Assembly (NCBI GenBank): GCA_020696385.1
Contig: JAEHCQ010000004.1
Coordinates: 32,001-96,000, forward strand
Direction: 5' to 3'
Length of the DNA stretch: 64,000 bases
Source: Methanobacteriota archaeon
Lineage (GTDB): Archaea; Thermoplasmatota; Thermoplasmata; SG8-5; JAGLSY01
Under the pieces are notes generated by a model. The model searched no databases. It was not told the DNA's origin and saw only the letters and a program-made list of their open reading frames with translations. Positions 264-60,061 of the stretch are shown piece by piece; position 1 is the first letter of the stretch, and every line of letters starts with the position of its first letter. Position numbers and translations under genes: made by a program.

Positions 264-1085
264 TCACCCATATTGTTCGATCATTCTCTTCCTCTTGGCC
301 AAATGTGATTTGACCGTGAACTCGTCCTTGAAGCCCATTTCCACCTGAGCCAGATTTTCCACTGCCTGGATCAGGTTCTCCTTTACAGGGCCTTTTACAT
401 CCAGTCCCGCCCTTGAGAATTGTTGCCTCACCATGGCCATCGCGGTGTCCCTGTCCCCGAATGATTCGCAGAACTCATTGATTATCACATCAGTGACATC
501 CACAAGGTTCTTGATCTCCTTCTTTGTCACTGTTTGTGATTGTGAGCTTTCCATGGCCTGGTCTGAGATTATGGATATGCCGAGGGCCTCGAACATCTCC
601 TCGACATTCTCTCCGGTCTTCGCACTGCTGAGGAAATATTTGGTATCATATTTGTCAGCCAGCTCTTGAAGATCATCATTCGTGATCTGCCTCTGATCTA
701 CCAGATCGGCCTTGTTCCCGACAAAGGTCAAAGGTATGTCCTCGCGCACCTTCCTAACCTCCGGTATCCAATAATCTTCCAGGCTGGCAAGGGTCTCTTT
801 CCTTGTGAGGTCGCATACCATCAGAGCACCTTCTCCACCTTTGTAGCTGGTGGATTGGATGGATGTGTAACCCTTCTGCCCAAGGATATCCCATATCATG
901 AGTGTGAGGTCGACCTTTTCATCACCATGTTCGAGGCTGAGAACCTTCTTCGTGACCTTTGTTCCAATGGTGGTGATGTACTTGTCATCGAACTTATCCA
1001 TCACGTATTTGTGGATAAGACTGGTCTTACCGACAGCCCCATCTCCAAGCATGAGTACTTTTCTCTTTACACGACGAACATCCAT
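264..1085 (-). CDS. Rab/Ras-like small GTPase with an extra ~85-aa C-terminal helical domain
   Basis: G1 GDGAVGKT, G2 YITTIG, G3 WDILGQ, G4 NKAD, G5 SAK; no C-terminal prenylation cysteines. Confidence 0.92.
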   Translation of the reverse strand: MDVRRVKRKVLMLGDGAVGKTSLIHKYVMDKFDDKYITTIGTKVTKKVLSLEHGDEKVDLTLMIWDILGQKGYTSIQSTSYKGGEGALMVCDLTRKETLASLEDYWIPEVRKVREDIPLTFVGNKADLVDQRQITNDDLQELADKYDTKYFLSSAKTGENVEEMFEALGISIISDQAMESSQSQTVTKKEIKNLVDVTDVIINEFCESFGDRDTAMAMVRQQFSRAGLDVKGPVKENLIQAVENLAQVEMGFKDEFTVKSHLAKRKRMIEQYG

Positions 1086-3772: not shown

Positions 3773-4615
3773 TCACGGTAGCATGGCTTCAAGGAGATCG
3801 AGCTCGTATATCATCGCGATGAGCTTGTCCTTGGAATCCCTTATTGGCAATTGTCCATAATCGTACTTCTTCATGATCCTGGCAGCTTCGCTGACCGATG
3901 TTTTCCTGAATACGGTTCGCGGTTCCTTGATCATGACATCTTTTACAGGGATGTTAGGTAATTCTATCCTTCTCACATCGAAGTACAATTTCATGACGTT
4001 CCTGAGACCTTCCCAGCTCCATTCATCCTCGTCCTCTCCGAGTCCAAGGGCTGACATGGCCGCGCTGACATTGATGGTCGATAGGTTGAACATATCCCTG
4101 TCGGTCACAAGACCGCTCAGTTTGCCATGCTCATCAAGAACGGGAGCGGCTACAAGGCCAGCAACCCTGAATACCGCATCCACGGTAGGCAGTGGTGACC
4201 CTTCATAGACTGGAACACATGGTGTTCTGACGTATTTATCCACCTGGGTCTTAATATCCATATCCTCTATTATCTGTAGAAAGTCAGCAGGGGTGATGAT
4301 GCCCACCAGCTTGTCATTCTTGACTATTGGAAGATGGTGCAGATCATGGGTGAGTAGCAATTCCGCTGCCTCAATTATATCATCAGATGGTCCAAGTGTG
4401 GGGTAGTCCTTGTTAATTATCAGAGCCAGTTGCTCCTCTTCTGGTTTTTTTGTGATATCCTGCCTTGTCACGAACCCTATCAGAGTTCCTTCCTTTGCCT
4501 TTATAACTGGAACTCCAGTCTTGTTCTCATTGACTAGCAGTCTCAATAGATCTGTTCTATTTCCAGGCAATTCTGCAACGATCGGATTCGTCGTCATTAG
4601 CTCTTTTATTTTCAA
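3773..4615 (-). CDS. CBS-domain protein (two CBS pairs)
   Basis: IKELMTTNP, LVGIITPAD, LSGLVTDRD, VKDVMIKEP repeats; TTG start with GGAGGTGA RBS. Confidence 0.88.
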   Translation of the reverse strand: MKIKELMTTNPIVAELPGNRTDLLRLLVNENKTGVPVIKAKEGTLIGFVTRQDITKKPEEEQLALIINKDYPTLGPSDDIIEAAELLLTHDLHHLPIVKNDKLVGIITPADFLQIIEDMDIKTQVDKYVRTPCVPVYEGSPLPTVDAVFRVAGLVAAPVLDEHGKLSGLVTDRDMFNLSTINVSAAMSALGLGEDEDEWSWEGLRNVMKLYFDVRRIELPNIPVKDVMIKEPRTVFRKTSVSEAARIMKKYDYGQLPIRDSKDKLIAMIYELDLLEAMLP

Positions 4616-29337: not shown

Positions 29338-30048
29338 ATGCTATTGGAGGAAATGACCACTGAAGAGATAAGAGAAAGAGTGAATGAGAGCTCGATAGCT
29401 CTATTGCCTTTAGGAGCAATAGAGGAGCATGGGCCACACCTGCCGCTATCAACCGATTGTCTGCAACCCCAGTATGTTGCAGAGGTCGTATCTGAACGAT
29501 TGGGAGCTTATCTCCTTCCAATTCTGAAATACGGGCAGTGTTCGAGCACCAAGAACTTTCCAGGCACTATAACACTCAGATTCGAGACTTTGAGGATGAT
29601 AATGGAAGACATCCTGTCCGAGCTTATCAGGATGGGCTTCAGGAATATTGTCGTACTCTCAGGACATGCTGGACGAACCCATATGACCGCGCTCAAGCTT
29701 GCAGGTGAAACAGTTCTGGAAGCTCACGAAGAAGATGTCAATCTCATGGTACTTTCTGATTATGACATCGCGTACACGATGAACGAGATCGAGATCCCGG
29801 TCAATGACGGACACGCGGGTATGATCGAGACTTCGAGGGTCATGGCCATACGCCCAGATCTGGTAAAGGGAACTGCCGAGTCCAATCATCCAAATTTTCC
29901 GCCTTTTATGATATTGAAGCACCCTGAGAAATACTTCCCAACTGGTGTCATGGGCGATCCCCAGCTCGCCTCGAAGGAGTTCGGAGAGAGGGCCAATGAG
30001 GTCATTATTGGTAGACTGGTTGAGATGATACAAAATATGGTAAAATAA
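29338..30048 (+). CDS. Creatininase-family amidohydrolase
   Basis: PLGAIEEHGPHLPLSTD, SGHAG, HAGMIETS, GVMGDP. Confidence 0.93.
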   Translation: MLLEEMTTEEIRERVNESSIALLPLGAIEEHGPHLPLSTDCLQPQYVAEVVSERLGAYLLPILKYGQCSSTKNFPGTITLRFETLRMIMEDILSELIRMGFRNIVVLSGHAGRTHMTALKLAGETVLEAHEEDVNLMVLSDYDIAYTMNEIEIPVNDGHAGMIETSRVMAIRPDLVKGTAESNHPNFPPFMILKHPEKYFPTGVMGDPQLASKEFGERANEVIIGRLVEMIQNMVK

Positions 30049-30077
30049 GGTGCGAGGGACCGGATTCAAACGGAAGC

Positions 30078-30167
30078 CTTTTCTTTTACGCTCACTGCGC
30101 TGGGTCACCCTCCAAAAGAACAAGTATTCCATTGCAAAAGAAAACTCGGGTGACCCTGCTCGTTCGC
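30078..30167 (-). ncRNA. Structured element copy 1 (candidate ncRNA or REP-like element)
   Basis: CTGCGCT-GGGTCACCC...GGGTGACCC-TGCTCG with complementary T- and A-tracts; strand is inferred. Confidence 0.5.
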
Positions 30168-30256
30168 TTCATACCTTTGCTGTATATGTGTGAAATACAG
30201 TTTGCTCTATCAAAAAATAAAGATAAGGTGCGAGGGACCGGATTCAGAACGTAAGT

Positions 30257-30394
30257 CTTTTTTTATTCTCACTGCGCTGGCTCTGGCTCATAGAATCAAA
30301 TCCATTATATGTTTTTGATAAAATAGATGCGCAAAATCGCGCATCTAAAAAAAAGAATTACATTAGAAAAAACTCGCCAGAGCATGCTCGCTCG
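30257..30394 (-). ncRNA. Structured element copy 2
   Basis: CTGCGCT-GGCTCTGGC...GCCAGAGCA-TGCTCG; internal hairpin TAGATGCGC/GCGCATCTA at 30324-30347. Confidence 0.45.
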
Positions 30395-30409
30395 AAGATA
30401 GTATGAAGG

Positions 30410-30542
30410 TGCGAGGGACCGGATTTGAACCGGCGAACCACTAAGGAATAGATCTTGAGTCTATCGCCGTTAGCCTTGATTGCAAACGCTGTTGATTCGT
30501 CAGTGGTTGCAGGTCAATTTGACCATGCTTAGCTACCCTCGC
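30410..30542 (-). tRNA. tRNA-Leu(CAA) with a ~49-nt intron in the D-loop (about 30470-30518)
   Basis: Acceptor GCGAGGG/CCCTCGC-A, anticodon arm ATAGA-CTCAAGA-TCTAT, long variable arm, GGTTCAAATCC; relaxed BHB GGTC-AAA-TTGA...TCAA-GGCT-AAC. Confidence 0.9.
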
Positions 30543-30654
30543 ATATTTTTATCGTGGATGTTAAGGTGATATCCATCATCATTTTAAAGGTTTTGACAAA
30601 AAACATATCAAACCACATAAATAAATACCACTTCATCAATCCCCAAAATACCGC

Positions 30655-30796
30655 GGGCCGGTGGTCTAGGGGTTATGGAATGGCAAGTTCGCTTCCATCC
30701 CACTCCATCTGACGTCGCCCTTACATTTGCATGTCAGATATTTCTGGCATGCAATCAGCAAGGCGAAGATCGGCGGTTCAAATCCGCCTCGGCCCA
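30655..30796 (+). tRNA. tRNA-Val(TAC) with two introns (D-arm about 30676-30709; canonical 37/38 at 30726-30760)
   Basis: Acceptor GGGCCGG/TCGGCCC-A, TCGCC-CTTACA^A-GGCGA, GGTTCAAATCC; intron stem TTGCATGTCAGA/TCTGGCATGCAA. Confidence 0.9.
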
Positions 30797-30874
30797 CTAA
30801 TAATTTTTTGTTTATGTATCATTTTATGTCATAAAAGGTAAAACTTTATATCTATTGTATCTTAGGTGCTCGCG

Positions 30875-31870
30875 ATGACTAGCTTTGAAGGTAAGATAAG
30901 TGTAGGAGTTATAGGCGTTGGCTCAATGGGCCGAAACCATGCTCGTGTATATTCCGATATTGGTGTTCTGGATGCTATATCTGATGTGGATTTCAAGACA
31001 GTCAGTGAGCTCGCGGAGAAATTCGGGGCAAAGGCATACGAGGACTATCATGAACTTCTCGCCTCGGATATCGAAGCCGTATCCATAGCGACTCCGACTC
31101 TCACTCATTTTCAGATCGCGATGGATGCCATCAAGGCCGGGAAGCATGTGCTCATAGAGAAGCCAATATGCTCGACCATTGAGGAATCCCAGACACTGAT
31201 AAATGCAGCCAAAGAAGCGGATCTGACTCTAGCGGTCGGTCTTATCGAGAGGCACAATCCCGTCGTGAAATTTGGAAAAGAAGCCATCCAGTCAAAGAAG
31301 TTTGGCGATGTCGTGACCATAACCGCCAGGCGTGTCAGTTCTTTCCCTGCAAGGATACGGGATGTGGGAGTGGTCATGGATCTTGGTGTCCATGATATCG
31401 ATGCTCTTCGTTATCTCATAGGTAGTCCGATCAAGAGTGTTTATGCTCTTGGTGGAAAGCATGCCAATGATGTTTTCGAGGACCATGCGAATATACTTCT
31501 TGACTTCGAGGATGGCACTACTGGATTTATCGAAATAAACTGGCTGACACCCATGAAAGTGAGAAAACTTTCTCTAACTTGCACGAAGAACTTCGTCGAG
31601 CTTGATTATATTACTCAGAGTGCGAGGATATCATCCTCCCAGGTACGAGCATTTGACAATTCAGATATGTCGCACATCCCACTTGAATTCGATATACGTG
31701 ATATCTCACTTAGAAAGAAAGAACCTCTCATGAACGAGCTGGTGGATTTCCTGGAAGCGATTCGGGACAAAAGGGAACCGCTCGTATCTGGTGAGGACGG
31801 TCTGGAGACCATCAAGGTGTGCCAGGCCGCGATAGAATCTGTCAAGTCAGGACGAAAAATAGATCTATAG
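30875..31870 (+). CDS. Gfo/Idh/MocA oxidoreductase (WbpB-like nucleotide-sugar 3-dehydrogenase)
   Basis: [28 protein letters not shown]; followed by an acetyltransferase and an aminotransferase. Confidence 0.88.
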
Positions 31871-31886
31871 ATTTGGAGTGATTGAC

Positions 31887-32507
31887 ATGGGAAGGATACT
31901 TGGAGATACCAAATTAGGAAATGGAACCTATGTGGCCGAGACTGCTGTCGTCGGTCATCCTGGAAAGCATGACAAGGAACTTATGATATCTGGTCGCGAG
32001 AATGAGACTCGCGGTGCAGTACTTGGAGAGAACTGCGTCATAAGGGATTACACGATCATATACACGGATGTTAAAATGGGCGATAGATGCCAGACTGGCC
32101 ATCACGCTCTCATCCGGGAAGAAACAGAAATAGGCGATCAGGTCATAATCGGAACCAGCACGGTCATCGAGGATCAGTGCAAGATAGGAAACCGAACATC
32201 TATCCAGACAGGTGTTTACATACCAACTAACACGATAATTGGTGATGATGTTTTCATCGGACCACGCGCGTGCTTTACAAATGACAAGTACATGGGCCGT
32301 GGCGATATCAATCTGATAGGAGCCAGAGTCGGTGACCATGCCCGGATTGGTGCAAATACGACCATCCTGCCGGGCGTGAAGATCGGCAGGGACACAGTTA
32401 TTGGAGCTGGCGCGGTAGTCACGAAGGACGTGCCAGACTTCGCGATTGTGGCCGGCGTGCCAGCCAGACAAATAAGCGAAACACCAAAAGATCACAGGAG
32501 ACTGTAG
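31887..32507 (+). CDS. Hexapeptide-repeat N-acetyltransferase (WbpD-like)
   Basis: Left-handed beta-helix repeats, [24 protein letters not shown]. Confidence 0.9.
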
Positions 32508-32508
32508 A

Positions 32509-33567
32509 ATGATAAATGTAGCAAGCCCCCAGATAGGGGATGAAGAATTTGAAGCAGTAAAGGCCGTTATGCAATCCGGCATGCTGGCCCAGGGAAAGAA
32601 AGTCGCCGAATTGGAAGAAAAATTCGCCGAGTACTGCGGAGCCAAACACGGTATCGCGGTAGGAAACGGAACCCAGGCCCTTCACCTCGCCCTATTGTCA
32701 ATGGGCATCGGCAAGGGCGATGAAGTGATAACCACTCCTTTCAGCTTCGTGGCCAGTGCGACATCCATCTTATTCACAGGGGCTACTCCGGTCTTTGCGG
32801 ATATCGATCCAAAGACCTTCAATATCTCTCCGGATTCAATAGCCGAGAAGATCACTCCAAGAACCAAGGCCATCATGCCAGTCCATATTTTCGGATTATC
32901 AGCTGACATGGAAAAGATTAACAAGCTCGGTATCCAGCACGGATTAAAAGTCTTAGAAGATTCCTGCCAGGCTCACGGAGCTTCCATGAACGGGAAGACA
33001 ACTGGCTCGATGGGGGATGCAGCCTGTTTCAGCTTTTATCCAACAAAGAACATGACAACTGGCGAGGGCGGCATCATCACGACAAATGATGATGTGATAA
33101 ACGACCTGGCCAAGAAGTTCAGGAACCACGGCATGGCCGACCGCTATGTTTATGAATTCCTGGGATACAATTTCAGAATGACCGACATCGCGGCATCAAT
33201 CGGCGTGGTCCAGTTGGCCAAGCTGGAGCAGATGACGAAGGCCCGTATCGAAAACGCGGCTTACCTCACAGAAGGATTGAAAGCCAAGGGCATTGTCACT
33301 CCTTTCGTGCCGGATGGCTACCGCCACGTTTTCCACCAGTACACGATCAGAGTGCAGGATAGGGACAATGTCATCCAGAAGCTGAGGGATAATGGTGTGG
33401 GCTCGGGTGTGTATTACCCCAAATCTCTGCATAAGTTCGACCTGCTATCGGATTACGGTAGCGAGGGACTGGATAATTCGGATAAGGCCGCGGAAGAAGT
33501 CCTCAGCCTGCCGGTGCATCCGGGATTGACGAAGGAAGATCTGGATACGATTATTGGTGCGTTCTAG
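32509..33567 (+). CDS. DegT/DnrJ/EryC1/StrS aminotransferase (WbpE-like)
   Basis: NGTQALHLAL, EDSCQAHGA, FSFYPTKNMTTGEGG, GYNFRM, LSLPVHP. Confidence 0.93.
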   Translation: MINVASPQIGDEEFEAVKAVMQSGMLAQGKKVAELEEKFAEYCGAKHGIAVGNGTQALHLALLSMGIGKGDEVITTPFSFVASATSILFTGATPVFADIDPKTFNISPDSIAEKITPRTKAIMPVHIFGLSADMEKINKLGIQHGLKVLEDSCQAHGASMNGKTTGSMGDAACFSFYPTKNMTTGEGGIITTNDDVINDLAKKFRNHGMADRYVYEFLGYNFRMTDIAASIGVVQLAKLEQMTKARIENAAYLTEGLKAKGIVTPFVPDGYRHVFHQYTIRVQDRDNVIQKLRDNGVGSGVYYPKSLHKFDLLSDYGSEGLDNSDKAAEEVLSLPVHPGLTKEDLDTIIGAF

Positions 33568-33580
33568 ATTCGGTATTTAG

Positions 33581-33655
33581 CCCACCCCAAATTTTGGGAT
33601 AGCCCCCCACCCAGCTCCTGTGCTGGACATCCCCAACCCCCGATGTCCTGCTCGG
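33581..33655 (-). repeat. Structured element copy 3 (C/G-tract variant)
   Basis: CTGTGCT-GGACATC-CCCAACCCCC-GATGTCC-TGCTCG, preceded by C-tracts. Confidence 0.6.
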
Positions 33656-33657
33656 AG

Positions 33658-34155
33658 CTAAAGCTTATTATCGCCATCTATGATGCTAATATGTTTTGAG
33701 ACAATGATATCGAATTTCGGTGTGTCTGCGAATGCCCCCTCGTCTAAACCCAAATAGAAACTTTTTAAGAGCCCGGGAACTTTATTTCTCAGAACGATTA
33801 TGAAAAAATAATCAGGTTTTTTTTCTATATTGACCCCATTTTTATATTTGATATAATGCCTAGTTATAGTTTCAATATTGGACCAAGGAATAAAAACTTC
33901 TTTTCCAAAATGCTTATTCCCTGATGTAAATCCATTTTCATAGACTCGGACATAATCTAAATTGATCACAATGTAAAGGACAATAGTGGCTGGAAATAAA
34001 TAAAATGGCCAAATAGATACCTCAAGTACAAAACTAATTACTGACAAACCGAAGAGTACGGCCATCACTATCAGTACTTTATTTCGCATTTCTCTATGTT
34101 TATAAATAACTCGCCAATTTTTTGAAGAATCAATTAATAGCTTACCCCGGTCCAT
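33658..34155 (-). CDS. Hypothetical membrane protein (2 TM helices plus a small beta domain), AT-rich
   Basis: Two hydrophobic segments, then VRVYENGF...FIPWSNIETI (bacterial PH-like pattern). Confidence 0.65.
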   Translation of the reverse strand: MDRGKLLIDSSKNWRVIYKHREMRNKVLIVMAVLFGLSVISFVLEVSIWPFYLFPATIVLYIVINLDYVRVYENGFTSGNKHFGKEVFIPWSNIETITRHYIKYKNGVNIEKKPDYFFIIVLRNKVPGLLKSFYLGLDEGAFADTPKFDIIVSKHISIIDGDNKL

Positions 34156-34232
34156 ATATTATACAATACATTTTCTGTATTTAAATCAGTCTTGGGAAAT
34201 CCCTGGGTTATCCACAGATCAGTCCAGCACCA

Positions 34233-34322
34233 CTTTTTTCTTTTAACCCTCGCTGTGCTTGCTCACCCTCAAAAAGAAAAAAGACGGACAAATAAAGAAA
34301 CTCGGGTGAGCCTGCTCGCTCG
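34233..34322 (-). ncRNA. Structured element copy 4
   Basis: CTTTTTTCTTTT...CTGTGCT-TGCTCACCC-TC-AAAAAGAAAAAAG...CTC-GGGTGAGCC-TGCTCG. Confidence 0.5.
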
Positions 34323-34328
34323 GGATAT

Positions 34329-34389
34329 GCCCTAACCATCCCCTTCCCACGATGCCCCTGCGCTGGTCCCATCCCCAACGCCTGCTCGG
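34329..34389 (-). repeat. Structured element copy 5 (C/G-tract variant, short stem)
   Basis: CTGCGCT-GG-TCCCATCCCCAACG-CC-TGCTCG; shares CATCCCCAAC with copy 3. Confidence 0.5.
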
Positions 34390-34404
34390 TGTGCTAGATA
34401 TAAT

Positions 34405-34737
34405 TTATACCAAATCAGCATCGTCTAAATATTTAGGTATGTTTTTCTCAACTTGATTAGATAAGCCATCTATTATTGCTAAAAATCCTGGAGTCATTGC
34501 TGAAGGTATAACTTTCCCTTCTCCTCTAACTCTAATTAATAATCCAACCTCTTCAAGATTATTTACTCTTGTATTTATGGATTTGACTCCCTTCGTTTTT
34601 AAAATTCCTTGAATCTCATCTATAGATGAAGGGAGCATTTTTAATATTCTATAGTTCTTTTCATCAGACCCTACTCTAAAGACTGCTAATGTGTCTTTAA
34701 TTATCTGATTTTTTATCCATACTTCGTTTATTTTCAT
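34405..34737 (-). CDS. Small winged-helix DNA-binding protein
   Basis: YRILKMLPSSIDEIQGIL...SINTRVNNLEEVGLLIR. Confidence 0.7.
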   Translation of the reverse strand: MKINEVWIKNQIIKDTLAVFRVGSDEKNYRILKMLPSSIDEIQGILKTKGVKSINTRVNNLEEVGLLIRVRGEGKVIPSAMTPGFLAIIDGLSNQVEKNIPKYLDDADLV

Positions 34738-35056: not shown

Positions 35057-35167
35057 TTGTAGTGAATGCTACAATCTTAAATATAGCCATGTACGTATCA
35101 ATAAATTCTCTCTGCTTAGTGAATGCTACAACACAAAGATTAATTAACTCGATATTAATTCACTAAG
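35057..35167. promoter_or_regulatory. Repeated operator-like sites between divergent islet genes
   Basis: TAGTGAATGCTACAA at 35060 and 35117 (first lies in the palindrome TTGTAG-N6-CTACAA); inverted ATTCACTAAG at 35158. Confidence 0.55.
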
Positions 35168-35169
35168 TG

Positions 35170-36288
35170 ATGTTCAAGAAAATTGAGATAAAAAATTATA
35201 AAAGTATTAAAAATGCAACAATTCACCTCAATAATGTAAATATATTGATTGGCCCTAATAATTCAGGTAAATCCAACCTTCTTGATTTCATTGATTTTTA
35301 TCAGACTATTTTGAGCTTTGAATTGAAAGAAGCATTTGGTCCTAGGCCATTTGATTTTCGAGATATAGTTTGTATGGCTTCTGATTTTAGAACTGATGCT
35401 ATTGAAGGTAGTTTTATTAGTGAAACTCGAGAAGGAAAGGAAATAACCCATGAATATGGAATTGAAAATTTCAGAAATTCAAAAGGAAGATTTGGTGTTC
35501 GTTTTAAACATGAACATGTTTCATTAAATGGCGACAATCAGAGCTATACAGACAGAACTGTTTCGATACTAAATGAACAATATAGAAATAGATCTATTGC
35601 AAATCAAAATTTATATGAATATGTTAGAGAATGTCGTTCAATACGGCGTTTTCAATTTTCACCAAAATTAATTAAGAAAGAAGAGGAGATAGATATTGCT
35701 TTACCTGATATTCCATTTTTACGATATAGTGGCGAAAATTTGATTGAAGTTCTGTTTCATATAAGAGATCACAATCCTGAAAATTATCGTAAAATTGTAA
35801 ATGATTTTAGATCAATATTTCCAGATATAACAGATATCTCATTCAAACATCTTGGTGAACAACGTTATGGTTTATCTTTTAACAAGAAGACATCAAAAGG
35901 CTCATGGCAACTCATGGCACCTCAAATATCAGATGGATTAGCAATCACTCTAGCTATTCTTACATTAATAAATTCAGCAAAACCCCCTAGATTTATACTG
36001 ATGGAAGAAATAGAAAATGGCATTAATCCGAATACATTGAGAATCCTTTTTGAAAAAATAGTGAGTGTATCAAATAAAAAAGGAATTCAATTTTTTATTA
36101 CAACTCATTCACCCATTCTTCTTGAGCTTATGAGTGATAATCCCGAATATGTAATCGTATGTGAACAAAAAGATGGTCAGTCTGAATATTTACCGTTAAA
36201 TGAATTGCTTCTTAAATTTGGTTCAGAATACCAGCATGGCGAATCTTTATTCCATCTTTGGTTTAATGGTCTTATTGGTGGTTTATAA
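35170..36288 (+). CDS. ABC-type ATPase (AAA_15/AAA_21, OLD-like)
   Basis: IKNYKSI, Walker A GPNNSGKS, signature ISDG, Walker B LMEEIENGINP, H-loop TTHSP; AT-rich. Confidence 0.88.
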   Translation: MFKKIEIKNYKSIKNATIHLNNVNILIGPNNSGKSNLLDFIDFYQTILSFELKEAFGPRPFDFRDIVCMASDFRTDAIEGSFISETREGKEITHEYGIENFRNSKGRFGVRFKHEHVSLNGDNQSYTDRTVSILNEQYRNRSIANQNLYEYVRECRSIRRFQFSPKLIKKEEEIDIALPDIPFLRYSGENLIEVLFHIRDHNPENYRKIVNDFRSIFPDITDISFKHLGEQRYGLSFNKKTSKGSWQLMAPQISDGLAITLAILTLINSAKPPRFILMEEIENGINPNTLRILFEKIVSVSNKKGIQFFITTHSPILLELMSDNPEYVIVCEQKDGQSEYLPLNELLLKFGSEYQHGESLFHLWFNGLIGGL

Positions 36289-36909
36289 TTGAAAATTCAT
36301 CTAATTACTGAAGGTCCAACGGATAGACTAATACTGAAAGCTTTACTTAATAGAATGATTGAAAGGCAACCCCATTTAATTTCTGAAAGTAAAACACAAA
36401 AAAAAAATCGTAGTGTTTCTTCATTACTCGATTATGCTTTTTTTTCGAAATTTCTTCATTACGCCTTTTATCACAGTGTTGATGTAATTATTACTTGCCT
36501 TGATAATGACGCTCATGAGCTAGATAGAACTGGTATATCCATAGAAAGAAAAGAGATTATTGAAGGCTATAAAAACAAATTTTTACTTGAAAATCAGTAT
36601 ATATACCCAACAGTCAATCCTTGCTTTATTATTATAGTGCCAGTTGAAACTCTAGATTATTGGGTAAAATGTATTAAAATGAGAACAACTAATTGTACAG
36701 AAATATTGAATATTCGACAAATAAACAAGGCCCAAATTAAATCATTAACCTATGGGGAACAGAATATTCATTTTGGATGGATGATTGATGATCAAGCAAT
36801 AACTAATGTCATTAATCAAATTACTGGACAAAATAATCTGATTGAAAAATTGGAATGCTTACCCTGTTTTAAAGATTTTCAAACACAGTTAGAAAATTGT
36901 CTATCCTAA
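36289..36909 (+). CDS. TOPRIM-like (DUF4276/DUF4435-like) putative nuclease partner
   Basis: ITEGPTD, CLDND, VETLDYW motifs; starts immediately after the ATPase stop. Confidence 0.65.
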   Translation: MKIHLITEGPTDRLILKALLNRMIERQPHLISESKTQKKNRSVSSLLDYAFFSKFLHYAFYHSVDVIITCLDNDAHELDRTGISIERKEIIEGYKNKFLLENQYIYPTVNPCFIIIVPVETLDYWVKCIKMRTTNCTEILNIRQINKAQIKSLTYGEQNIHFGWMIDDQAITNVINQITGQNNLIEKLECLPCFKDFQTQLENCLS

Positions 36910-59949: not shown

Positions 59950-60061
59950 TGGGCCCAACGAGATTTGAACTCGAGACATCCCGGTATCAGAGAGAACAAC
60001 CCCTTATTTGAGGTTTGTTCCATATCAGCCGGGCGCTATAACCAGGCTAAGCCATGGGCCC
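59950..60061 (-). tRNA. tRNA-Ile(GAT) with a 37-nt canonical intron (59986-60022)
   Basis: Acceptor GGGCCCA/TGGGCCC-A, CCCGG-CTGATA^A-CCGGG, AGTTCAAATCT. Confidence 0.92.

What the first reader, a model, noticed from the sequence alone, without database searches (positions are those of the whole stretch)
30078..34389. Five-member structured element family with covarying stem and a possible triple-helix pseudoknot
Seen: invariant flanks CTGYGCT and TGCTCG enclose stems that differ in sequence but keep pairing: GGGTCACCC/GGGTGACCC (30102/30148), GCTCTGGC/GCCAGAGC (30280/30376), GGACATC/GATGTCC (33625/33642), GCTCACCC/GGGTGAGC (34261/34304), GG/CC (34365/34381). Read on the minus strand, copy 4 has loop tracts UUUCUUUAUUU and CUUUUUUCUUUU plus a downstream AAAAGAAAAAAG. 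The second tract is a perfect 12-bp antiparallel partner, and the first matches in parallel (Hoogsteen) register. Copy 1 shows the same logic (UUUUCUUUU, UUCUUUU, AAAAGAAAAG); copy 2 is weaker. Known: this strand order is that of U.A-U triple helices in ENE elements and the telomerase pseudoknot. Inference: an archaeal RNA (or ssDNA) motif I do not recognise, acting as a 3'-end stabiliser, terminator or mobile-element end. All copies share orientation and lie downstream of minus-strand genes.
Basis: partly seen in the sequence, partly recalled or inferred. Interest (0 to 1): 0.8.

Follow-up and report, generated by a model that had tools for sequence, protein, structure and literature searches.

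The report
Mobile structured RNA-like repeat of Thermoplasmata
The five hairpins belong to a widespread, apparently undescribed family of roughly 100-base folded repeats that sit at gene ends in Thermoplasmata archaea, carry a loop-to-tail pseudoknot that could form a triple helix, and are often flanked by a duplicated copy of the neighbouring gene's end.

Summary
Exactly five same-strand copies lie at 30.09-34.39 kb and nowhere else in the window. They are three long forms (c1, c2, c4) and two short forms (c3, c5).

One scan of public genomes found at least 54 more long forms. All are in about 19 Thermoplasmata or Methanomassiliicoccales-labelled MAGs, with several copies per genome. No Rfam family matches.

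The strand that folds is the window's minus strand:
- a hypervariable stem whose two arms change together;
- a loop holding two U tracts;
- an A-rich 3' tail that pairs with the second U tract.

Stem, outer helix and loop-tail pairing all covary. G.U pairs outnumber A.C by 22 to 3. The first U tract matches the tail in parallel register more often than in antiparallel register, so a triple helix is compatible but unproven.

New here: 14 of 40 copies, against 0 of 170 control positions, are flanked by 25-140 nt direct repeats of the upstream gene's 3' end. In the window this repeat is the 3' end of an intron-bearing tRNA-Leu, present three times around c1 and c2.

Best reading: an interspersed, mobile, structured element acting at transcript 3' ends. 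Its function and its way of moving are inferred, not shown.

The parts
30070..30166 (-). c1, long form. Core 30091-30166: stalk, stem GGGUCACCC/GGGUGACCC and a loop with two U tracts. 3' tail 30070-30090: A tract plus GGCUUCCG, read on the minus strand.
   Evidence: Covariance-model hit 30067-30170, 89.4 bits. The tail is shared with L006, L018, L034 and L069.
30167..30210 (-). 5' extension of the c1 unit, with a small hairpin CUGUAU...AUACAG (about 30180-30200). It lies between repeat X1 and the c1 core.
   Evidence: Read. By analogy with the 5' hairpin of the L015/L037/L041/L044/L055 subfamily. Not tested further.
30250..30394 (-). c2, long form with a roughly 50-nt insertion in the loop that includes a perfect hairpin at 30324-30347. 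Core 30268-30394, tail 30250-30267.
   Evidence: (I10). Covariance-model hit 30244-30398, 68.4 bits.
30408..30541 (-). tRNA-Leu(CAA)-like gene with a roughly 49-nt insertion (intron) in the D-loop region. Its 3' end is repeat copy X0.
   Evidence: Partial Rfam tRNA hit 30410-30489, below gathering score. Alignment with the intron-less tRNA of L049. ARAGORN calls nothing.
30211..30249 (-). X1: direct repeat of the tRNA-Leu 3' end plus trailer, between the c2 tail and the c1 unit.
   Evidence: Exact 18-mer at 30227; D2 and D4; 56-nt flanking repeat of c1, score 35 against a shuffle maximum of 16.5.
30031..30070 (-). X2: second direct repeat of the tRNA-Leu 3' end plus trailer, directly after the c1 tail. 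It abuts the stop codon of the convergent creatininase-family gene.
   Evidence: gene.
33613..33659 (-). c3, short form: 6-bp outer helix, stalk, 7-bp stem and a G-rich loop. It overlaps the stop codon of ORF 33658-34155.
   Evidence: Fold z-score -3.1 on the minus strand and -4.9 on the plus strand. Covariance model 14.2 bits. Alignment with short forms L003, L063 and L059.
33580..33612 (-). G-rich tract (C-rich on the + strand) following c3 on the minus strand.
   Evidence: The same feature follows all 5 aligned short forms.
34225..34322 (-). c4, long form. Core 34249-34322; tail 34225-34248, with an A tract complementary over 12 of 12 bases to the second U tract.
   Evidence: Covariance-model hit 34225-34326, 95.8 bits.
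34357..34389 (-). c5, degenerate short form: stalk, a 2-bp stem and a G-rich loop. It lies 17 nt after the stop of ORF 34405-34737 and is followed by a G-rich tract at 34323-34356.
   Evidence: Covariance model only 9.4 bits, E 1.5.

Best explanation
The five copies belong to a family of interspersed structured elements of Thermoplasmata and Methanomassiliicoccales-like archaea. The functional strand is the window's minus strand.

Anatomy of a long-form unit (about 95-100 nt):
- a 3-bp covarying outer helix;
- a conserved GA-rich stalk: tandem G.A, then two G-C pairs, then a GA/RCA internal loop, then two G-C pairs, then an A.A mismatch;
- a 7-9-bp stem of free sequence;
- a loop with two U-rich tracts;
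- 2-4 nt after the stalk, an A-rich tail. The tail pairs with the second U tract and neighbouring loop bases (a pseudoknot). It lies in parallel register with the first U tract, so a U.A-U triple helix is possible.

Short forms keep the stalk and stem but have G-rich loops and G-rich downstream tracts.

Inferred function. The unit is transcribed as the 3' part of the upstream, mostly co-oriented transcription unit. There it folds into a compact 3'-terminal structure that defines or protects the transcript's 3' end. Its T tracts on both DNA strands would act as archaeal terminator signals between neighbouring genes.

Spread. The unit spreads within and between related genomes. New copies are typically flanked by a direct duplication of the last 25-140 nt of the upstream transcription unit. 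In the window that unit is the 3' end of tRNA-Leu, hit twice by two different family members (c1, then c2). Two routes remain open:
- insertion at widely staggered nicks, as in target-primed reverse transcription;
- integration, by homologous recombination, of a small circle carrying gene end, element and tail.

What is shown: family membership, strand-specific structure, covariation of stem, outer helix and pseudoknot, flanking duplications, and conservation between orthologous sites.

What is inferred: an RNA rather than single-stranded-DNA carrier, triple-helix formation, the 3'-end or terminator function, and the mechanism of movement.
For: Family.
- 54 locus hits score at least 67.8 bits with the model. 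All lie in records labelled Thermoplasmata, Thermoplasmatota, Methanomassiliicoccales or 'Methanobacteriota', from about 19 MAGs with up to 8 copies each.
- The remaining loci are stem-less chance hits in high-GC bacteria.

Structure, on 48 aligned copies.
- 93.2% of cells are paired, against 74.5% in shuffles (0 of 500 shuffles reach this).
- 138 two-sided changes, against 39.9 in shuffles.
- Sliding the partner columns gives 45% paired or less.
- RNAalifold returns the same 15 pairs.

Strand. G.T plus T.G number 22, against 3 for A.C plus C.A. There are 35 tandem G.A cells.

Pseudoknot.
- Cognate loop-tail duplexes average -17.3 kcal/mol, non-cognate -12.1 (0 of 2000 permutations).
- A compensatory C-G to U-A change separates the orthologous copies L023 and L110.

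Triplex-compatible register. The first U tract matches best in parallel in 26 copies, ties in 15 and matches best antiparallel in 7, of 48. The clearest cases (L017, L045, L056) match 10 of 10 in parallel.

Spread.
- 14 of 40 copies with full flanks have flanking direct repeats scoring at least 16, against 0 of 170 control positions in the same loci.
- The repeats are ends of rpl40e (the ORF read by me from the sequence; named by no call), an M29 peptidase, aIF5B and other genes.
- In the window, the c1 flanks score 35 and the c2 flanks 21, both above shuffles.
- An identical element sits at two unrelated loci of one MAG, L047 and L049.
- About 10 copies lie within 150 nt of a contig end.

Conservation between orthologous sites.
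- L023 vs L110: gene 77%, linker 59%, element 94%, tail 95%, downstream repeat 97%, further downstream 52%.
- L024 vs L074: element 85%, flanks about 50%.

Position.
- Neighbours are housekeeping genes. No reverse transcriptase or transposase recurs.
- By my tally, the upstream neighbour with a Pfam match is co-oriented in 16 of 22 cases.
- In 3 loci the tail abuts the 3' end of a convergent tRNA: L036 and L049 and L102 (read by me).
Against: - No expression, 3'-end or probing data exist.
- Runs of T on the sense strand inside the loop could stop archaeal RNA polymerase before the tail is made.
- The stalk helix and the loop-tail helix both covary. With a 2-4 nt linker they cannot coexist unless the GA-rich stalk is sharply kinked, so they may be alternative folds.
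- G.T wobbles and G.A pairs are also tolerated in folded single-stranded DNA.
- The first U tract has low complexity. 15 of 48 comparisons are uninformative ties and 7 go the wrong way. In L110 the C of this tract is replaced by A.
- Copies are related, so shuffle and permutation tests overstate independence.
- Many stalk positions were fixed by the search pattern.
- The downstream repeat is not a decaying relic. Pooled differences between the two repeat copies are 17 synonymous to 4 amino-acid-changing (binomial p 1e-4 against a 39% neutral expectation that is my own estimate). The downstream copy is conserved between MAGs. A simple staggered-cut duplication does not predict this.
- L054 has non-complementary arms.
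- Two elements lie between divergent genes (L002, L029).
- 26 of 40 copies show no flanking repeat. c3, c4 and c5 show none.
Confidence: 0.55

Rival explanations
1. A DNA-level recombination or transposition site. One strand folds as single-stranded DNA, in the manner of integron attC sites or the hairpin ends used by single-strand transposases. A recombinase encoded elsewhere recognises it. The elements mark boundaries of exchangeable gene cassettes.
For: - The architecture (conserved ends, free middle, one-strand folding with conserved unpaired bases) resembles attC logic, which I recall rather than tested.
- L054 combines the 5' arm of one element type with the 3' arm of another.
- Contig JAUSPR010000225.1 (4183 nt) carries three co-oriented elements bounding toxin-antitoxin-like genes.
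- In L055 and L061 the sequence after the tail is a diverged C-terminal fragment of the same gene family as the upstream gene.
- In L022 a DNA-methylase C-terminal fragment follows the element.
- In the window the copies bracket single ORFs and a low-GC defence island.
- The mirror-repeat U tracts would equally allow a DNA triplex.
Against: - Most copies stand alone beside housekeeping genes such as SRP54, aIF5B, PAN, LysRS and FtsZ.
- Only 1 integrase lies within 2 kb across 39 archaeal loci scanned, and there is no recurrent neighbour.
- There are no cassette arrays like those of integrons.
- The 35 tandem G.A cells, the loop-tail pseudoknot and the element's conservation at orthologous sites are more typical of RNA.
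Confidence: 0.2
2. A purely host-encoded terminator or insulator module that does not move. The flanking repeats arise from local slippage or from tandem paralogues.
For: - T tracts occur on both strands, and the elements sit at gene ends.
- Elements are conserved at orthologous sites.
- Stems are free in sequence, as in functional RNAs.
- In L061 the repeat lies among tandem DpnI-like paralogues.
Against: - The same subfamilies occur beside unrelated genes in many MAGs.
- An identical copy sits at two unrelated loci of one MAG.
- Flanking repeats accompany 14 of 40 elements against 0 of 170 control positions.
- Two different members sit at the same tRNA end in the window.
- Contigs break at the elements.
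Confidence: 0.1
3. c1 and c2 are leftovers of larger integrative elements (provirus or plasmid) that inserted into the 3' end of tRNA-Leu through an integrase. The hairpins are their attachment-arm or terminator remnants, and c3-c5 are unrelated.
For: - Three direct copies of the tRNA-Leu 3' end are the classical signature of integration at a tRNA gene.
- X1 and X2 resemble each other more than either resembles X0.
Against: - The same units occur beside protein-coding genes with their own, different flanking repeats.
- No integrase or other mobile-element gene lies in the window near them.
- blastn finds no match among plasmids or phages.
- c4 is a full family member without any tRNA.
Confidence: 0.05
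4. Chance similarity of low-complexity, AT-rich intergenic DNA.
For: The U and A tracts are low-complexity. c5 is barely above noise.
Against: all exceed their controls. At least 54 further members exist elsewhere.
Confidence: 0.01

Closest known systems
ENE-type triple-helix 3'-end stability elements with a genomically encoded A-rich tract (MALAT1 and MEN-beta, viral PAN RNA, transposon RNAs of plants and fungi). Recalled; reviews PMC7583470 and PMC13541005 were seen only as search listings.
   Same: Two U-rich strands lie on either side of a small variable segment above a stem, with a downstream A-rich tract. One U strand is antiparallel and the other parallel to that tract. The element sits at the 3' end of a transcription unit. 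There is precedent for such structures in mobile-element RNAs.
   Different: This family is archaeal. The U tracts lie in a hairpin loop rather than in an internal loop closed by a stable upper stem. Pairing with the tail extends into non-U loop bases. A conserved GA-rich stalk lies below the stem. Triple-helix formation is untested. Short forms replace the U/A chemistry with G-rich tracts.
Pseudoknots with a major-groove triple helix (telomerase RNA, SAM-II and preQ1-II riboswitches). Recalled.
   Same: The strand order is stem 5' arm, U-rich loop 1, second-helix 5' strand, stem 3' arm, linker, purine 3' strand. This puts loop 1 parallel to the purine strand.
   Different: The linker here is itself paired in a covarying stalk. 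The second helix is long (9-17 bp). There is no ligand or template function, and no sequence or Rfam match.
Bacterial REP/BIME and similar interspersed extragenic hairpins. Recalled; PMC3184786 and PMC2229807 were seen as listings.
   Same: Many copies per genome, lying in intergenic regions at gene 3' ends. The proposed roles are terminator and mRNA 3' protection. They spread without encoding a protein.
   Different: Stem sequence is free here, whereas REP copies within one genome share sequence. This family has a pseudoknot tail and long flanking duplications. No cognate REP-type transposase has been identified.
SINE-like non-autonomous retroposons. Recalled.
   Same: A small structured non-coding unit with an A-rich 3' region. 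It is dispersed and has flanking duplications of variable length.
   Different: The A tract is internal to the unit and paired. No internal promoter or reverse-transcriptase partner was found. The duplications are much longer. The downstream copy is conserved rather than decaying.
Integron attC sites. Recalled.
   Same: Conserved ends, free centre, one-strand folding with unpaired conserved bases, and a position at the 3' end of co-oriented ORFs.
   Different: The attC core-site motifs are absent. There are no arrays and no integron integrase nearby. Most copies lie beside housekeeping genes.

Membership tests
Any Rfam 15 family | Covariance-model match at or near the gathering score | tested here: not met
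   Window at gathering score: only a tRNA at 59950-60061. Region 29900-34700 at E up to 10: nothing on the elements except a weak terminator-like hit inside the c2 insertion. Seventeen family loci at E up to 0.5: tRNAs only.
ENE-type triple-helix stability element | Two U-rich strands facing each other above a stem, plus a 3' A-rich tract | tested here: met
   Present in c1, c2 and c4 and in all 46 aligned outside copies.
ENE-type triple-helix stability element | U-rich strands form an internal loop closed by a stable upper stem | tested here: not met
   The segment between the tracts is 6-15 nt with at most 2-3 possible pairs. The fold and the alignment fold leave it open.
ENE-type triple-helix stability element | U.A-U base triples form and protect the 3' end | not testable with these tools
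   Only register statistics are available: parallel best in 26, tie in 15, antiparallel best in 7, of 48.
Pseudoknot (loop to 3' tail) | A second helix between hairpin loop and downstream strand, kept by covariation | tested here: met
   Cognate against non-cognate duplex energies, 0 of 2000 permutations. Subfamily-specific complementary tracts. One compensatory change between orthologues. Caveat: steric conflict with the stalk.
Kink-turn (L7Ae site) | A 3-nt bulge directly followed by tandem sheared G.A pairs | tested here: not met
   Tandem GA and a 3-nt RCA strand both exist, but two G-C pairs separate them. The motif definition is recalled.
Archaeal bulge-helix-bulge splice site | Two 3-nt bulges separated by a 4-bp helix | tested here: not met
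   The internal loops are 2x3 and 1x1 or 2x2, separated by 2 bp. The definition is recalled.
MITE (miniature inverted-repeat transposable element) | Terminal inverted repeats conserved among copies, with a short duplication of fixed length | tested here: not met
   The unit ends (stalk 5' strand and tail) are not inverted repeats. Stem sequence differs between copies. Flanking repeats are 25-140 nt and variable.
Integron attC | Conserved inverse-core and core sites at the two ends; arrays next to an integron integrase | tested here: not met
   The end sequences differ from the recalled core motifs. Most copies are single. One integrase was found among 135 neighbouring ORFs.
Integrative element at a tRNA gene | Direct repeats of the tRNA 3' end bounding an element that encodes an integrase | tested here: inconclusive
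   The repeats are present. The bounded segments are only about 150 nt and encode nothing. No integrase lies in the window.
Diversity-generating retroelement (template/variable repeat pair) | Differences between the two repeats confined to adenines of the template copy; reverse transcriptase adjacent | tested here: not met
   Differences are mostly synonymous and not adenine-specific. No reverse transcriptase lies nearby.
SINE-like retroposon | Reverse-transcriptase partner and an RNA intermediate | not testable with these tools
   No reverse transcriptase lies in the 64-kb window or within 2 kb of 39 archaeal loci. Whole genomes could not be searched.

The most novel reading that the evidence does not exclude
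This is a new kind of prokaryotic mobile element. It is a small non-coding RNA whose 3' end is capped by its own loop-tail triple helix; short forms would use a G-quadruplex-like equivalent. It rides in the 3' untranslated end of host transcripts. It spreads when the capped transcript end (gene end plus element plus tail) is copied into DNA, circularised and integrated by homologous recombination at the same gene in the same or a related genome. That would explain three observations: the long duplications of variable length, their mostly synonymous divergence, and the three tRNA ends around two elements in the window.
Probability: 0.2. Interest if true: 0.9.

Novelty: new variant of a known kind. 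Interest (0 to 1): 0.78.

Why it matters
- If the fold forms in RNA, it would be the first archaeal case of a cis-acting triple-helix or pseudoknot 3'-end cap. Such caps are so far known from eukaryotic and viral RNAs.
- It would give a handle on how transcript 3' ends are defined and protected in an uncultured archaeal lineage.
- The flanking duplications of gene and tRNA ends point to a way of moving that fits no standard prokaryotic transposon class.
- Practically, the family breaks assemblies, creates false tRNA fragments and spurious ORFs, and should be annotated.
- A covariance model now exists that can find it.

Tried and rejected
Searches that found nothing:
- ARAGORN found no tRNA in the window, because the genes carry introns.
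- Rfam found nothing on the elements.
- blastn of 30040-30410 against the plasmid and phage collections gave no match.
- All-against-all comparison of ORFs around 43 archaeal loci, and Pfam on 135 of them from 39 loci, gave no recurrent neighbour, reverse transcriptase or transposase.
- Pfam on 55 window ORFs gave none either.
- The covariance-model search of 59 sources added only a few weak or tandem copies: L074 1889-1981, L055 3624-3721 and L049 2411-2460.
- Six literature searches and a term search inside PMC4153887 (passages only) found no description of such an element. Supplements were not consulted.

Ideas considered and dropped:
- Split-tRNA halves. The T arm of the fragments is degenerate.
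- Kink-turn and bulge-helix-bulge motifs. The geometry does not fit.
- MITE. There are no terminal inverted repeats.
- attC. The core sites are absent.
- Diversity-generating retroelement. The differences are not adenine-specific.
- A known ribozyme. No Rfam hit.

Weak result:
- A crude orientation count using ORFs of at least 100 aa gave 17 co-oriented against 13 opposite upstream neighbours. It misses small genes and tRNAs. The tally restricted to Pfam-supported neighbours gives 16 against 6.

Left unchecked:
It only catches copies with exact flanks and G at the first position of the inner stalk helix, so the census is a lower bound.
- I cannot say whether the window's own genome is in the collection.

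Full report
**1. The observation**

- c1, 30095-30162
- c2, 30272-30390
- c3, 33618-33654
- c4, 34253-34318
- c5, 34358-34388

All quoted stems and tracts are there.

A relaxed structural scan finds four of the five. Simulated sequence gives a mean of 0.07. A family covariance model run with filters off ranks the five copies above everything else in the window apart from one 9.9-bit hit (30324-30367, +) that lies inside c2 and outranks c5. c3 (14.2 bits) and c5 (9.4 bits) are weak.

The set has two classes:
- c1, c2 and c4 are homologous long forms (D1, D3, D5).
- c3 and c5 are short forms that share a G-rich loop.

**2.

c2 and c1 lie downstream of a minus-strand tRNA-Leu(CAA)-like gene at 30408-30541. 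The gene carries an insertion of about 49 nt relative to an intron-less relative.

The last 20-25 nt of that tRNA, plus its trailer, occur three times in direct orientation: X0 at 30408, X1 at 30227 and X2 at 30049.

On the minus strand the order is: tRNA(X0), c2, tail, X1, c1, tail, X2. The c1 flanks share a 56-nt repeat (score 35, shuffle maximum 16.5). The c2 flanks share 25 nt (score 21, shuffle maximum 13.5). c3, c4 and c5 have no flanking repeat.

**3. The flanks are part of the fold**

Read on the minus strand, the 'invariant flanks' pair in short blocks. From the outside inwards:
- outer helix
- tandem G.A
- two G-C pairs
- a GA/RCA loop
- two G-C pairs
- an A.A mismatch
- the variable stem

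**4. The family elsewhere**

blastn against plasmids and phages found nothing. Rfam found nothing.

About half are stem-less chance hits in high-GC bacteria. The rest are clear family members of 71-76 nt. Model R1 scores 54 locus hits at 67.8 bits or more.

Every one lies in a record labelled Thermoplasmata, Thermoplasmatota, Methanomassiliicoccales or 'Methanobacteriota'. They come from about 19 MAGs, with up to 8 strict-pattern copies each. About 10 lie within 150 nt of a contig end, as expected of repeats that break assemblies.

Rfam finds nothing on 17 of these loci except tRNAs. Six literature searches and one in-paper term search found no description.

**5. Structure**

On 48 aligned copies (2 from the window, 46 from outside; alignment A2):
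- 93.2% of pair cells are standard pairs, against 74.5% in shuffles (0 of 500 shuffles reach this).
- There are 138 two-sided changes, against 39.9 in shuffles.
- Sliding the 3' partners drops pairing to 45% or below.
- RNAalifold returns the same 15 pairs.

Many stalk columns were fixed by my search pattern, so their invariance proves nothing. The stem (columns 17-23 with 61-67), the outer helix (3-4 with 81-82) and column 77 were free, and they covary.

G.T plus T.G cells number 22, against 3 for A.C plus C.A. There are also 35 tandem G.A cells. The strand that folds is therefore the window's minus strand, as RNA or as single-stranded DNA.

**6. The pseudoknot and the triple-helix question**

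Every long form is followed, 2-4 nt after the stalk, by an A-rich tract plus 6-10 more bases. These are complementary to the second U tract and to adjacent loop bases. In L002 the match is 14 of 14.

Different subfamilies carry different but matching tracts. Cognate loop-tail duplexes average -17.3 kcal/mol against -12.1 for non-cognate pairs (0 of 2000 permutations). The orthologous copies L023 and L110 differ by one compensatory C-G to U-A change in this helix.

Register against the tail, across 48 copies:

| Tract | Antiparallel best | Tie | Parallel best |
|---|---|---|---|
| Second U tract | 42 | 5 | 1 |
| First U tract | 7 | 15 | 26 |

In L017, L045 and L056 the first tract matches 10 of 10 in parallel and only 7-8 in antiparallel.

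The two U tracts are thus mirror repeats, which no simple mutational process creates. The strand order places the first tract parallel to the purine strand, as a Hoogsteen third strand requires.

This is support, not proof. The tracts are low-complexity and the copies are related. In L110 the C of the first tract is an A.

There is also a steric problem. The tail leaves the base of a stalk-plus-stem helix of about 21 layers and would have to reach its loop through 2-4 nt. Either the GA-rich stalk is sharply bent, or the two pairings are alternative states.

**7. Short forms**

c3 and c5, together with L003, L063 and a second element in L059, share:
- the stalk
- a short stem
- a loop rich in G runs
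- further G runs just downstream

The scaffold is the same. The loop and tail chemistry is G-rich instead of U/A. A four-stranded G structure is conceivable but untested.

**8. Flanking duplications**

Of 40 long forms with full flanks, 14 have a direct repeat (score at least 16) between the 120 nt upstream and the 220 nt downstream. None of 170 control positions in the same loci does.

| Locus | Repeat length | Upstream gene |
|---|---|---|
| L020 | about 140 nt | rpl40e (ORF read by me from the sequence) |
| L018 | 75 nt | M29 peptidase |
| L064 | 70 nt | aIF5B |
| L067 | 59 nt | not named |
| L045 | 53 nt | not named |

The upstream copy ends 0-14 nt before the element, or before a 5' extension of about 40 nt. 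The downstream copy starts right after the last paired base of the tail. The inserted unit is therefore element plus tail.

The window's X0, X1 and X2 fit this picture. Two different family members hit the same tRNA end.

An identical element lies at two unrelated loci of one MAG, L047 and L049.

**9. A complication**

The downstream copy is not a decaying relic. In L018, L064, L067 and L023 the two copies differ at 17 synonymous and 4 amino-acid-changing positions. The binomial p is 1e-4 against my rough 39% neutral expectation.

In L055 and L061 the downstream copy looks like the C-terminus of a diverged paralogue.

Identity between orthologous sites:

| Segment | L023 vs L110 | L024 vs L074 |
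|---|---|---|
| Gene | 77% | not compared |
| Linker | 59% | 56% |
| Element | 94% | 85% |
| Tail | 95% | 75% (tail plus extension) |
| Downstream repeat | 97% | included in the row above |
| Further downstream / flanks | 52% | about 50% |

So element, tail and downstream repeat are either under selection or have spread recently between lineages.

A plain staggered-cut duplication does not predict this. Integration of a small circle (gene end, linker, element, tail) by homologous recombination at the same gene would predict all of the following:
- the tail-to-repeat junction
- the synonymous divergence
- three repeats around two elements in the window

I cannot decide between the two routes. 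L054, whose two stem arms come from different element types, shows that elements also recombine with each other.

**10. Context**

Neighbours are mostly housekeeping genes: SRP54 in both L002 and L041, aIF5B, PAN, LysRS, FtsZ and topoisomerase VI B in L051. Among 135 ORFs from 39 archaeal loci there is no recurrent partner, no reverse transcriptase and no transposase. There is one integrase. The window has none.

By my tally, the Pfam-supported upstream neighbour is co-oriented in 16 of 22 cases. Only 2 elements (L002, L029) lie between divergent genes. A cruder count gave 17 against 13.

In L036, L049 and L102 the tail abuts the 3' end of a convergent tRNA (L036 and L049; L102 read by me). 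The T tract on the other strand then follows that tRNA directly.

In variable regions several co-oriented elements bound small gene sets. Examples are contig JAUSPR010000225.1 and the window's ORF110-c5-c4-ORF165-c3 arrangement.

**11. Verdict**

It is an undescribed family of interspersed, strand-specifically folded elements, with a covarying pseudoknot and a triplex-compatible layout.

The family is tied to gene 3' ends and able to spread. The reading as an RNA 3'-end or terminator module, and the mechanism of spread, remain inferences.

The main rival is a folded-DNA recombination site.

Noticed in passing
window 30408-30541 (-) and about 30655-30796 (+): Two tRNA genes with long insertions. 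The first is tRNA-Leu(CAA)-like, with about 49 nt inserted in the D-loop region. I read the second by eye. ARAGORN and the Rfam gathering threshold miss both.
   Followed up: partly
window 35167-36909 (+), inside a low-GC stretch at about 33.6-36.9 kb: A two-gene defence-like pair. The first is an AAA_21/SMC-type ATPase whose best PADLOC match is HEC-01A (E 4e-43). The second is a 206-aa partner with a weak Toprim-like N-terminus. The pair lies between the repeats and the topoisomerase VI genes.
   Followed up: partly
window 33580-33612 and 34323-34356; L003, L063, L059: All five short-form elements are followed on the folding strand by several runs of 3-7 G. Their loops are also G-rich. This suggests a G-rich counterpart of the U/A loop-tail interaction.
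   Followed up: partly
window 30324-30347: c2 carries an insertion of about 50 nt in its loop. It holds a perfect 9-bp GC-rich hairpin followed by a T run on the minus strand. Rfam shows a weak resemblance to a terminator-type sRNA (E 6.7).
   Followed up: no
L054/L055 (contig JAUSPR010000225.1, 4183 nt): Three co-oriented elements sit at contig positions of about 18-119, 2421-2522 and 4068-4165. They bound AbiEi-like and HEPN/nucleotidyltransferase genes. The contig ends within 20 nt of an element at both ends.
   Followed up: partly
L054 18-119: One element has stem arms that cannot pair. Its 5' arm is of the L044 type and its 3' arm of the L091 type. It looks like a recombinant of two family members.
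   Followed up: no
L022 34-469: The element is followed directly by an open frame matching only the C-terminal part of a DNA methylase (profile positions 132-220 of 221). This may be an unusually long downstream gene-end copy. The upstream side is cut by the contig end.
   Followed up: no
L015, L037, L041, L044, L054, L055 (about 30 nt upstream of the element): One subfamily carries an extra 5' GC-rich hairpin with compensatory and G.T changes between copies. c1 has a different small hairpin in the same place (window about 30180-30200).
   Followed up: no
L002 and L041: Two MAGs whose SRP54 genes are 71% identical both have an element just upstream of SRP54. The two elements belong to different subfamilies.
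   Followed up: partly
window 59950-60061 (-): An intron-containing tRNA. It is the only Rfam hit in the window at gathering score (49.4 bits).
   Followed up: no
window 264-1085 (-) and L041 2124-3083 (-): Ras/Roc-family small GTPase genes occur in this archaeal lineage.
   Followed up: no
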